From: a virus
Lineage: Duplodnaviria; Heunggongvirae; Uroviricota; Caudoviricetes
Length of the DNA stretch: 20,639 nt
IMG/VR virus record: IMGVR_UViG_2648501143_000006
Strand: one strand, 5' to 3'
Position numbers: made by a program
Shown here: one piece after another, positions 18,001-20,639 of the stretch
Position numbering within the stretch: the stretch's first letter is position 1
Layout: each line of letters opens with the position of its first letter

Positions 18001-20639
18001 GCGGCGTTCTGCCAGCCAGTTGTGAATCTCAACCGCATCAAACGCAGTTATTTTTTCTCCCAGCTTTACCGGACGTGGTAGTGAACCGTTTCTTACTTTA
18101 CGGTCGATGGTGGATACACTAACGCCCAGCAATTCAGCCAGGCGGAAGCGTCTGATATAGCCTTTTGTAGGAATAGTGTCGGTGTTCATGCTTCCCGTAA
18201 CCTCTTAGCGATAGTTGTTGCTTCGTTACGGGAGGAAGTATCTGTACATATATGAACAATAAAAAGGCACAGTAATGATACTGTGCCTGAATAGTTAGCT
18301 ACTCTACCCCTTACCGTTGGCGGCAGCACGTAAGTGTCTCAAAATCACATCTTCATTTGTGATTGCTAACGGTGGAATTTCGTCTTTATGAGCCACTATG
18401 CAATCCCGCCACTTCTCAGGGCTTATTTCTTTCTTTTTGCCACGGCATTCATCAGGGTATTGCGATAATATATATATTGCTGATTTTAATAGATCTTCTC
18501 TATTTCTTGCATGTCGCTCAGCTATATTATTGCCGTTTTTTGTTTCGTTCGCTGTTCTCAGCATTTGTTCTATATTTTGTTGTCTTATTCTTTCATAGTC
18601 GAAACACCCGTTAACTTTTGCATTGTACAGGTTTTCTAAATCATCCTTCGCCATATAAATATTTTTATCGGCAAGGTGGCTCAGGTGAATTTGTTCGCTT
18701 TTCGTTTCGAATTTAAACGCAGCACATTTAAACTGCTCATAAAGACGGATATATTGCTCGCCGCATTCTCGTGGGTGATAATGTCGCTTGAGCACGCCAT
18801 GCACGCGCAAAAATCCACTTAAAGGCGTTTTTCTCGCAGTAAGAGAGTGTTCGCCAGTTTGTTCAAATACCTTTGCATCGTATTCAGCTAAAGGCGGCAG
18901 GTACACAAAAAATGGCGGGAAATAAGGATCGTCAAGACTTGGCAAGGTAAGACGGTTATTATTATCAAAATCATCACAAATATAAACATCAAAAGGAAAT
19001 ATCGATCTTATATGTGCTGAGGGCTGACGGAGTGCGTAATACATCTCACGCGTTAAAACGTCATTTGGAGTTATATGGAAGGTGGAGTCACCTACAACTT
19101 CATCAAGATAATCAACATGTACATAAAAATTGATATAACATCTATCATACCAATGCCATATATCATCAATTTCACAATTTAATAATTTTGATGCTCGCTC
19201 TATCGTGCAGTAGTCCAAAGGTGGAATACCTGATTCCTGCCATAAATTTTTATGCACCGCAGTTGTTTCATGAGAGTCGTTCATTGCGTCACCTTTTACG
19301 CTGCGCCTTATTTTGTGATTGAGCCAGGCGGTAAGGCTTCCCGCTTTTCTCCCCGTCGAGCTAGGCTCAATCTATTCAGTTAGTTCGCCCTTCTGAGAGG
19401 CGTTACGTTGTAGTCTTTTCCGCTTTCCAGTGCCACCAGCAGATCAGCCCACTGTGCCAGTGCTGCTTTACGCTCATCAAAATACTGATGGCGGTTATAA
19501 ATCCCCTCTACGCCCTTAATGCGATGATTGAGGCATCGTTCCGCCACGACAGGATCAACACCCAACGCTGCTAAATGAGTACGTGCGGTGCGTCGGAAGT
19601 CGTGAATCGTGAAATTAGGCACATCCGGCATTTCGGCGCGAACCTTAGCCAGTGCTACGGGCAAAGTGCTTTCCTGAATATGTGGGATCATTCTGTTTTG
19701 CATCTTCCTGGCTGGAAGCACCCATGCGCTATTACATGAAAAGGTGTGTAGCTCTCTCAACCATTCAACGGCTGGGGAAGGTAGAGGTATATCAATAGGG
19801 TCTCCGTTTTTGCTGCGTTCTTCCGGCAAATGCCATACCGCACCATCTAAATCAAACTCTTCCCATCGTGCGGCGCATAACTCCATCTTACGAACGCATA
19901 GTGCCAGCAATAGTTTAAATGTCAGTTCGTTTTGGCGGCTGAATCCTTTTGCGGTGCGCATAGCCTCGAATAGCCTGATAAGCTCATCGCGAGTTAGCCA
20001 ACGGTCGCGGGAAACCTCTTTACCACCAGCATCAGATACTTCAAACGCTGAACAAGGGTTTATCTCCAGAGCGTGGCGTTTTATCCCGTAGTCAAAGATA
20101 CGGCGTGTCCAGCGTAATACATCTGTTGCTATCGTTGGTGCTCCTCGGTCAACGATACCTTTCAACATGTCGTCAATGTGGCGTGGCTTAACGTCCTCTA
20201 CCTTCATATGCCCAATGCAGGGGTTAATATCCTTATCAATTCTCCGGCGAAGGATATCGGGATGTTTCCATCTCGGAAGTATCTGGCGCTCGAAGTATTC
20301 GGAGGCCAGATCTGAAACACGCATGGCGTTTTTCTCAGCCTCCATTTTTGCCAGTGCTTCAGCTTTTCGTTCCTGTTTCTCTGCTGCTACGTCATAGCCA
20401 AGAGCAACTCTGGCTGACAGCTCTTTTGCTGTTTCTCTGGCTTTTGATAGTGACAGTTCGGAGTAAGAGCCTATAACCATAGCCCGCTGCTTTCCTGCGA
20501 GCTTATAGCGGAATCGCCAGAACGGGGCTGTGTAGTTTTTGGGGTAGCAAATATAAAGGCCGTTGCCGTCTGCCTTGCCATCAAATCTGTCTCCCGCCTT
20601 TATCCATGCGCGGATCTGCATATCTGTGAGTTTTGGCAT

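What the first reader, a model, noticed from the sequence alone, without database searches (positions are those of the whole stretch)
18190..18241. alpA leader hairpin that includes the ribosome-binding region
An 11-bp inverted repeat (one mismatch) with a 27-nt loop lies immediately 5' of the alpA start codon, and the AAGAGG / GGGAAG Shine-Dalgarno candidates fall in the loop edge and 3' arm. This suggests translational control of the master activator.
Basis: seen in the sequence. Interest (0 to 1): 0.3.

Follow-up and report, generated by a model that had tools for sequence, protein, structure and literature searches.

The report
Conserved RBS-masking hairpin before alpA
A short RNA stem-loop just before the start codon of a phage-satellite master regulator (alpA) is real and conserved across many enterobacteria. 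It most likely keeps the regulator untranslated on stray transcripts that read in from upstream genes, a known kind of safety device seen here in a new place.

Summary
The inverted repeat exists on the minus (alpA sense) strand. TCCCGTAAC (18233-18225) and GTTACGGGA (18201-18193) form 9 perfect pairs, or 11 with one mismatch. The loop is 23 nt, not 27, and the 3' arm ends 3 nt before the ATG.

On its own it is only mildly unusual (fold z = -2.4). Its conservation is decisive: 66 of 85 distinct leaders of this alpA allele keep the stem, in E. coli, eight other enterobacterial genera, metagenomes and IMG/VR.
- 92% of cells are paired and 5 of 9 pairs show compensatory changes (0/500 shuffles reach the score).
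- G.U mismatches outnumber A.C 16:2, which points to sense-strand RNA rather than a DNA operator.
- No Rfam family covers it. The Rfam int-alpA motif lies 1.1 kb upstream.

New finding: unrelated upstream sequences give an emergent TATAAT about one base 5' of the CCCG of the arm. alpA's own transcription start is therefore predicted inside the 5' arm.

Best model (about 0.5): the hairpin forms only in read-through RNA from int and the upstream ORF and masks the ribosome site, as in IS10-type fold-back inhibition. The computed cost of opening the site is about 14 versus 6 kcal/mol.

The start site and the translational effect are not measured. I rate this a new member of a known kind, of moderate interest.

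The parts
18225..18233 (-). 5' arm of the stem (UCCCGUAAC). It extends to 18235 with one C.A mismatch. It overlaps the predicted discriminator and start region of the alpA promoter.
18202..18224 (-). 23-nt CA-rich loop (GAAGCAACAACUAUCGCUAAGAG). Its 5' part (GAAGCAACAAC) is conserved. Its 3' end carries the SD candidate AAGAG(G).
18193..18201 (-). 3' arm of the stem (GUUACGGGA). It extends to 18191 and lies between the SD and the start codon.
18201..18206 (-). Shine-Dalgarno candidate AAGAGG, 11 nt before the AUG, at the loop/stem junction.
   Evidence: read from the sequence; equivalent AAGAGG/AAGGAG/ACGGAG at the same place in relatives
17986..18189 (-). alpA CDS (67 aa, Phage_AlpA/excisionase-type HTH). 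Start ATG at 18189-18187. Its stop overlaps the start of the next ORF (TGATG).
18237..18242 (-). Predicted -10 hexamer GATACT of the alpA promoter. It is weak (7 of 12 matches together with the -35). The predicted start is at about 18230-18229, inside the 5' arm.
   Evidence: inference, not measured
18260..18265 (-). Predicted weak -35 (TTTTTA, 17-bp spacer), overlapping the terminator T-tract.
   Evidence: inference
18255..18288 (-). Intrinsic-terminator-like hairpin AGGCACAGUA-UCAU-UACUGUGCCU followed by UUUUUAUUGUU, downstream of the 326-aa ORF. Proposed first layer of insulation.
18304..19284 (-). Co-directional 326-aa ORF of unknown function between int and alpA. It is a proposed source of read-through transcription and evolves fast (21-34% identity between islands).
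19380..20639 (-). Tyrosine integrase, co-directional, at the island end.

Best explanation
The repeat encodes an RNA stem-loop in the alpA leader: an 8-9 bp GC-rich stem whose 3' arm fills the space between the Shine-Dalgarno sequence and the AUG. alpA's own weak sigma70-type promoter has its -10 element directly 5' of the stem, so transcripts it starts begin inside the 5' arm and cannot form the stem. Their ribosome-binding site is open. Transcripts that enter from the co-directional int and upstream ORF and escape the terminator carry both arms, fold, and are poorly translated. The hairpin would thus be a second insulating layer, after the terminator. It would stop stray upstream transcription from producing AlpA, the self-activating switch and excisionase-type protein of this phage satellite. 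This is the logic of 'fold-back inhibition' in IS10/Tn10.

Shown: the repeat, its conservation, the covariation, the sense-strand bias, the position of the -10-like signal, and the computed difference in accessibility.
Inferred: the transcription start, the existence of read-through RNA, and the effect on translation.
For: (1) Structure. There are 9 perfect pairs. The same hairpin is the minimum-energy and centroid fold in 66-nt and 171-nt contexts.

(2) Conservation. 66 of 85 distinct leaders keep the core stem; they come from 154 loci in E. coli, eight other enterobacterial genera, metagenomes and IMG/VR. RNAalifold predicts the same stem independently.

(3) Covariation. 92.1% of cells are paired, 5 of 9 pairs change on both sides, and 41 cells are compensatory. 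The score is 0.274 against 0.102 in shuffles (0/500) and at most 0.068 for slid partners.

(4) RNA on the sense strand. In the 8 core pairs there are 16 G.U against 2 A.C mismatches. A DNA palindrome predicts parity.

(5) The distance between the GTAAC/GTTAC cores varies (13, 16, 19, 20, 22 and 23 nt), while the 3' arm always ends 0-5 nt before the ATG.

(6) Promoter. In 41 upstream sequences less than 70% identical to each other, anchoring on the stem gives T19 A23 T21 A18 A21 T27 at -15..-10, with the highest information at A2 and T6. Twelve strict -10 hexamers end exactly at -10, against 0-3 at other upstream offsets outside the -13..-10 cluster. The combined -35/-10 score is 7.22 against 6.19 +/- 0.17 in shuffles and 5.8-6.3 in shifted windows.

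(7) 37 of 41 loci have a co-directional ORF ending within 250 nt upstream. The window also has a terminator.

(8) Cost of opening -15..+5 around the AUG: 14.1 kcal/mol in read-through RNA against 6.3 from the predicted start. The difference exceeds 3 kcal/mol in 65 of 66 leaders. The window RNA started at G18229 keeps only a 5-bp remnant (z=-0.24).

(9) Biological need. In related islands AlpA activates its own promoter, and its overproduction causes uncontrolled island replication (PMC6092414).

(10) Precedent. IS10 sequesters translation signals against external promoters (Davis, Simons & Kleckner 1985, cited in PMC13181058; details from my own knowledge).
Against: No transcription start has been measured for this allele. 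The -10 signal is statistical: only 19 of 41 loci have a strict hexamer within +/-2 nt of the modal position. In the window itself the promoter is poor (TTTTTA-17-GATACT, 7 of 12 matches) and sits 3 nt further upstream than the mode.

The SD's 5' part and the AUG stay unpaired even when the stem forms, so repression may be partial. Some relatives (L110, L109 type) would keep an inner anti-SD pairing even in the short transcript. A strict scan found a terminator upstream in only 3 of 41 loci, so the two-layer picture is not general.

Three stem pairs are invariant and the 5' half of the loop is conserved. Pairing alone does not explain that; it suggests an additional sequence-specific role, either in the promoter's initial transcribed region or in binding a factor.
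Confidence: 0.5

Rival explanations
1. The hairpin is part of every alpA mRNA because the start lies upstream of the 5' arm. It would act as a standing translational brake that something opens on induction, such as a helper-phage or island factor, an sRNA, or standby ribosome binding in the CA-rich loop.
For: The stem, the covariation and RBS occlusion fit this equally well. The SD 5' half is exposed in a large CA-rich loop and part of the loop is conserved. In the window the best -10 candidate is weak.
Against: The recurring -10 hexamer ends about 1 nt before the CCCG of the arm, and no promoter signal appears at offsets that would put the start 5' of the arm. In the window only 23 nt separate the terminator T-tract from the core arm (21 nt from the extended arm). 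Reported helper induction of alpA in related islands is transcriptional (PMC6092414, PMC11773190). No convincing partner RNA was found: the island's C4-like, isrK-like and int-alpA RNAs share at most 7-8 contiguous pairs with the leader, wobbles included.
Confidence: 0.25
2. The repeat works as DNA: a two-half-site operator spanning the start and early transcribed region of the alpA promoter. It would be bound by AlpA itself (autoregulation), by a helper-phage activator or repressor, or by the fast-evolving upstream ORF product.
For: Pairs 1, 2 and 4 (C-G, A-T, T-A) are invariant in 66 leaders, more than pairing requires. The repeat overlaps the predicted promoter. The two commonest loop lengths, 13 and 23 nt, differ by one helical turn. 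AlpA autoactivates its promoter in related islands.
Against: G.U to A.C is 16:2, where a DNA site predicts about 1:1. Core spacings of 16, 19, 20 and 22 nt also occur. The half-site is not enriched elsewhere in the island (7 matches against 8.6 expected). An activator site from +1 to +40 would be atypical. The upstream ORF varies (21-34% identity) while the arms are constant.
Confidence: 0.15
3. It is a generic structural element with no regulatory logic, for example a 5' stem that stabilises the mRNA, or a chance palindrome inherited with the gene.
For: The single-sequence z-score is modest. Several other 9-bp repeats exist in the window.
Against: Compensatory changes across genera while the flanking upstream DNA is unalignable. 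The 3' arm keeps a fixed position next to the AUG. The predicted start is not 5' of the stem, so it cannot cap the 5' end.
Confidence: 0.07

Closest known systems
IS10/Tn10 'fold-back inhibition' (protection of transposase from external promoters; similar arrangements are reported for IS50 and IS3). Davis, Simons & Kleckner, Cell 1985, as cited in PMC13181058; mechanism details from my own knowledge.
   Same: An inverted repeat whose 3' arm covers the translation-initiation region. The gene's own promoter starts inside or after the 5' arm, so only transcripts coming from outside fold and are silenced. It is combined with a second barrier, here a terminator. It protects a dangerous mobile-element gene from fortuitous expression.
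   Different: The setting is a phage satellite (PICI-type island) and an AlpA/excisionase-type regulator, not a transposase. The upstream transcription comes from the element's own int and ORF rather than from host DNA. The start site and the effect are predicted here, not measured. There is no sequence relationship.
Rfam RF02996 int-alpA RNA motif
   Same: Same neighbourhood (integrase-alpA region of enterobacterial islands). It is found in this window and in 7 of 20 related loci tested.
   Different: It is a separate element. It lies at 19305-19371, directly after int and 1.1 kb upstream of alpA, with the 326-aa ORF in between. The leader hairpin gives no Rfam match even at E<=10.
Generic RBS-sequestering leader hairpins (RNA thermometers; sRNA- or protein-opened translational operators)
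   Same: A stem involving the SD/AUG region immediately 5' of the start codon.
   Different: The stem is GC-rich and stable (-15.4 kcal/mol, no internal mismatches), unlike thermometers. No ligand, sRNA or protein partner was identified.
AlpA-controlled PICIs EcCICFT073 and EcCIMP1 (PMC6092414, PMC11773190)
   Same: The window's island has the EcCIMP1 gene order: int, alpA, 143-aa ORF, antA, DUF4222, ash, primase, P22-type ejection proteins, PerC. In those islands alpA is the self-activating, helper-induced master switch.
   Different: Those two islands carry other alpA alleles with unrelated leaders. The covariance model finds nothing there, so their experiments do not test this hairpin.

Membership tests
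Rfam RF02996 int-alpA RNA | Matches the family covariance model at or above the gathering score | tested here: not met
   18100-18400 gives no int-alpA match even at E<=10. The only RF02996 hit in the window is at 19305-19371.
Fold-back inhibition of read-through transcripts (IS10 type) | Inverted repeat whose 3' arm covers the ribosome-binding or start region | tested here: met
   The 3' arm 18193-18201 lies between the SD (18206-18201) and the AUG (18189). The same holds in 66 relatives.
Fold-back inhibition of read-through transcripts (IS10 type) | Pairing maintained at the RNA level | tested here: met
   Covariation 0.274 against 0.102 (0/500 shuffles), 5 of 9 pairs compensatory. G.U to A.C is 16:2. 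RNAalifold predicts the same stem.
Fold-back inhibition of read-through transcripts (IS10 type) | The gene's own transcription start lies inside or 3' of the 5' arm | tested here: inconclusive
   A -10 consensus emerges at -15..-10 relative to the loop-closing base, which predicts a start within GTAAC. No mapped 5' end is available. In the window the promoter is weak.
Fold-back inhibition of read-through transcripts (IS10 type) | Co-directional transcription can enter from upstream | tested here: met
   int and the 326-aa ORF are on the same strand. 37 of 41 relatives have a co-directional ORF within 250 nt. Actual read-through RNA was not observed.
Fold-back inhibition of read-through transcripts (IS10 type) | Read-through RNA is translated worse than promoter-proximal RNA | not testable with these tools
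   Only computed opening energies are available: 14.1 against 6.3 kcal/mol.
Intrinsic terminator / attenuator | GC-rich stem followed directly by a U-tract | tested here: not met
   The 3' arm is followed by AGCAUGAACACC. The terminator scan reports only the separate hairpin at 18288-18265.
RNA thermometer (ROSE / fourU type) | Weak, mismatch-containing stem pairing the SD; match to known families | tested here: not met
   9 uninterrupted pairs, 5 of them G-C, -15.4 kcal/mol. No Rfam match.
Palindromic DNA operator of a dimeric regulator | Fixed half-site spacing and strand-symmetric tolerance of mismatches | tested here: not met
   Core spacings of 13, 16, 19, 20, 22 and 23 nt, and G.U to A.C of 16:2. 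The half-site is not enriched in the island. Binding itself was not tested.
Pfam PF05930 Phage_AlpA (the downstream gene) | Protein matches the family above the curated cut-off | tested here: met
   34.3 bits against a cut-off of 21, E=2e-8. It is also in PHROG 66, excisionase/transcriptional regulator. It is not the Q-like P. aeruginosa 'AlpA' antiterminator, which has functional residues numbered up to 142 (PMC9371919), whereas this protein has 67 aa.

The most novel reading that the evidence does not exclude
The stem-loop, with its conserved CA-rich loop, is a new cis-regulatory RNA class that forms the actual trigger point of this satellite family. Under this reading a helper-phage or island factor (protein or RNA) opens it, or recognises the invariant GUAAC/GUUAC bases, so that sensing of the helper happens at translation of AlpA and not only at transcription.
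Probability: 0.1. Interest if true: 0.7.

Novelty: new member of a known kind. Interest (0 to 1): 0.42.

Why it matters
AlpA is the self-amplifying switch that commits Gram-negative phage-inducible islands to excision and replication. How it is kept off in the absence of a known repressor is an open point in the PICI literature (PMC6092414).

This work describes a conserved and so far unannotated leader element. It comes with a concrete, testable model: a terminator plus a fold-back hairpin insulating alpA from int and upstream-ORF transcription. That offers one mechanism for tight silence.

It also supplies three practical things:
- a covariance-model-ready RNA motif for annotating one widespread alpA allele;
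- a predicted position for the alpA promoter;
- design guidance for engineered PICIs, since constructs that include the 5' arm should be silent.

The principle itself is already known from insertion sequences, so the result fills a gap rather than changing the picture.

Tried and rejected
- **Known RNA family.** Rfam at gathering score and at E<=10 finds nothing on the leader.
- **Trans-acting RNA partner from the island.** The C4-like, isrK-like and int-alpA RNAs share at most 7-8 contiguous pairs with the leader, wobbles included. The isrK duplexfold energy looked unusual (0.3% of mononucleotide shuffles). However, it comes from a long interrupted duplex that ignores intramolecular structure, and it involves a loop segment that is not conserved. 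I judged it unconvincing. Conservation in other islands was not tested.
- **Dispersed operator.** The half-site CCCGTAAC is not enriched in the window.
- **Long-range pairing UGUUCAU/AUGAACA around the AUG**. The upstream partner is not conserved in relatives.
- **Experimental anchor.** EcCIMP1 and EcCICFT073 were fetched, but they carry other alpA alleles and leaders, so published promoter data do not transfer. The papers searched give no mapped alpA start.
- **Phage database.** No similar leader was found.
- **Exact palindrome scan of IMG/VR**. It returned 95 stretches, roughly what I estimate by hand for a 16-base palindrome in a collection of that size, so it was not pursued.
- **Universal terminator upstream of the promoter.** A strict scan found one in only 3 of 41 loci. 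Other loci have different palindromes there.
- **Defence or other annotation of the upstream ORF.** No PADLOC, NCBIfam, Pfam or PHROG hit.

Full report
**What is there.** alpA is on the minus strand (18189..17986, 67 aa; Pfam Phage_AlpA, E=2e-8). Read 5'->3' on that strand, the region upstream contains these features in order:
- the stop of a co-directional 326-aa ORF (18304);
- a terminator-like hairpin, AGGCACAGUA-UCAU-UACUGUGCCU, followed by UUUUUAUUGUU (18288-18255);
- 21 nt of spacer;
- UCCCGUAAC (18233-18225);
- a 23-nt CA-rich loop;
- GUUACGGGA (18201-18193);
- AGC, then the AUG.

It has 9 perfect pairs, or 11 with one C.A mismatch, and the loop is 23 nt, not 27. AAGAGG sits at the loop/stem junction and GGGAAG in the 3' arm, as described.

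**Is it more than chance?** Alone, barely. The fold is -15.4 kcal/mol with z=-2.4, and the window has about nine comparable 9-bp repeats. The comparison with relatives settles it.

E. coli genomes hold at least five diverged versions of the leader, and homology between them begins at the 5' arm. Using an AlpA protein alignment I fetched 9 loci from other genera: Leclercia, Enterobacter, Erwinia, Dryocola, Citrobacter, Tatumella, Mixta and Kosakonia. I also fetched 80 metagenomic loci and 59 IMG/VR loci.

Of 85 distinct leaders, 66 keep an 8-9 bp stem whose 3' arm ends 0-5 nt before the ATG. Variants include UCCCGUAAC/GUUACGGGA, CCCCGUUAC/GUAACGGGG, GCCCGUAAC/GUUACGGGC, UCUCGUAAC/GUUACGAGA, CCCCUAAC/GUUAGGGG and CCCAUAAC/GUUAUGGG.

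On a 55-sequence alignment:
- 92.1% of cells pair;
- 5 of 9 pairs change on both sides (41 cells);
- the covariation score is 0.274, against 0.102 in shuffles (0/500) and at most 0.068 for slid partners.

RNAalifold finds the same stem unprompted. A covariance model built from the alignment hits only the alpA leader, both in the window and in a 40-kb genomic stretch.

**RNA or DNA?** Among the eight core pairs, non-Watson-Crick cells are 16 G.U, 2 A.C and 8 other, the last mostly at the outermost pair. G.U on the alpA sense strand would be A.C on the other strand or in a DNA palindrome. The 16:2 bias therefore points to selection on sense-strand RNA. By my count these are roughly 12 against 2 independent events.

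The distance between the conserved GTAAC/GTTAC cores varies (13, 16, 19, 20, 22 and 23 nt). The half-site is not enriched elsewhere in the island. Some relatives extend the stem inward so that CUUC pairs with the GGAG Shine-Dalgarno (for example L110). I conclude that this is an RNA element that masks the ribosome-binding region.

**Where does the alpA transcript start?** This changes the interpretation. The DNA 5' of the arm is unalignable between classes. Even so, anchoring 41 mutually dissimilar upstream sequences on the stem gives an emergent T-A-T-A-A-T at -15..-10 (T19 A23 T21 A18 A21 T27 of 41). The most information is at A2 and T6, which is the sigma70 -10 signature.
- Strict -10 hexamers end exactly at that position in 12 loci, against 0-3 at other upstream offsets outside the -13..-10 cluster.
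- The combined -35/-10 score is 7.22 of 12, against 6.19 +/- 0.17 in shuffles and 5.8-6.3 for windows shifted upstream.
- Several genera share aTGACx-17-AATxAT.

With the -10 ending about 1 nt before CCCG, the standard 7-nt distance puts +1 in GUAAC. That is inside the 5' arm.

In the window the candidate promoter is weak (TTTTTA-17-GATACT, 18265-18237). It predicts a start near 18230-18229. Only 23 nt lie between the terminator T-tract and the core arm (21 nt to the extended arm), which leaves no room for a promoter whose start precedes the stem. A weak promoter fits published results that alpA needs activation by AlpA itself and by a helper phage (PMC6092414, PMC11773190).

**Mechanism proposed.** Two results have to be reconciled. 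The pairing is selected at the RNA level, yet alpA's own start appears to fall inside the 5' arm. Both hold if the complete stem exists only in RNA that enters from upstream.

Such transcription is plausible. int and the 326-aa ORF are co-directional, and 37 of 41 relatives have a co-directional ORF within 250 nt.

The computed cost of opening -15..+5 around the AUG is 14.1 kcal/mol for read-through RNA and 6.3 for RNA from the predicted start (15.5 against 5.2-6.9 in the window). The difference exceeds 3 kcal/mol in 65 of 66 leaders. The short window RNA keeps only a 5-bp remnant and is no more structured than shuffles.

This is the architecture and logic of IS10 'fold-back inhibition' against external promoters (Davis, Simons & Kleckner 1985, cited in PMC13181058; details from my own knowledge). 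Here it is applied to a regulator whose leaky expression would be self-amplifying and harmful, since AlpA overproduction causes uncontrolled island replication.

I put about 0.5 on this model. I put about 0.85 on the narrower statement that this is a conserved RNA hairpin masking the alpA ribosome site.

**Rivals.**
- (a) The stem is in all alpA mRNAs and is opened by some factor (0.25). This fits the structure data but not the -10 position, and no partner was found.
- (b) It is a DNA operator (0.15). The invariant pairs 1, 2 and 4 and the overlap with the promoter favour this. The G.U bias and the variable spacing count against it.
- (c) It has no regulatory role (0.07). Compensatory evolution next to unalignable flanks contradicts this.

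**What remains unexplained.** Pairing alone does not account for the invariance of C-G, A-U and U-A at the loop end of the stem. It also does not account for the conservation of the first half of the loop (GAAGCAACAAC). These bases would be the first about 15 nt of the proximal transcript. They may carry a second function in promoter escape, as a translational enhancer, or in binding a factor.

**Relation to what is known.** No Rfam family matches the leader. The Rfam int-alpA motif is a different element located right after int (19305-19371). In 7 of 20 related loci it is in the corresponding place, about 1 kb upstream of alpA.

The island has the gene order of EcCIMP1, a PICI mobilised by a P22-like phage. 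However, EcCIMP1 and EcCICFT073 carry other alpA alleles with unrelated leaders. No published experiment therefore addresses this hairpin.

The Q-like 'AlpA' antiterminator of P. aeruginosa is a different, larger protein.

**Verdict.** I rate it a new member of a known kind of device and of moderate interest. The decisive experiment is mapping the alpA 5' end.

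Noticed in passing
window 19305-19371 (-): Rfam int-alpA RNA (RF02996, 54 bits) sits directly after the int stop and before the 326-aa ORF, not next to alpA. 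It is in the same place in 7 of 20 related loci. Its function is unknown.
   Followed up: partly
window 15971-16058 (-) and 16083-16159 (-): A C4 antisense RNA (79 bits) and an isrK-type RNA (65 bits) lie side by side inside the 342-aa ORF 15512-16540, which RefSeq annotates as 'ash family protein'. That ORF may be over-called, and the island probably has a P1/P4-type RNA immunity module. L057 has the same pair.
   Followed up: partly
window 4624-9282 (-): The satellite carries a full set of P22-type ejection and head-completion genes: gp14-like (8821-9282), P22_gp7 (8150-8827), Inj_translocase/gp20-like (6729-8150) and a gp16-like/transglycosylase protein (4624-6729). EcCIMP1 has the same set. 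It is unusual cargo for an island without capsid or terminase genes.
   Followed up: partly
window 9962-10057 and 11066-11168: GGTACAGGT and its variant GGTATAGGT occur 13 times in the window against 2.2 expected. Ten of them cluster in the two intergenic regions 3' of the primase gene, in both orientations. They look like replication-origin iterons or regulator sites.
   Followed up: partly
window 18304-19284 (-); L002-L006 equivalents: The ORF between int and alpA is present in all E. coli relatives examined but is only 21-34% identical between them. It has conserved N- and C-terminal motifs and no hit in Pfam, PHROGs, NCBIfam or PADLOC. It is a fast-evolving island gene of unknown role, possibly a specificity determinant.
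   Followed up: partly
window 18265-18288 (-); L005, L009, L013-L015, L055, L135; L119, L132, L085: The palindrome just upstream of the predicted alpA -35 differs by class. It is a terminator-like AGGCACAGUA..UACUGUGCCU in the window, GGTACAGT..ACTGTACC in others, and GCACCGAAAA-N-TTTTCGGTGC (followed by ATGAC) in several genera. These could be terminators, binding sites for the activator of the alpA promoter, or both.
   Followed up: no
window 17984-17988 (-): The alpA stop and the start of the next ORF (143 aa, no family hit) overlap as TGATG. This suggests translational coupling, so that masking the alpA RBS may also silence the downstream gene.
   Followed up: no
L252 13183-13245 (E. coli CFT073, EcCICFT073): Right after the int stop there are about six AACAACG-type repeats spaced 10 nt apart, a candidate array of protein-binding sites in the int-alpA spacer of the model PICI.
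   Followed up: no
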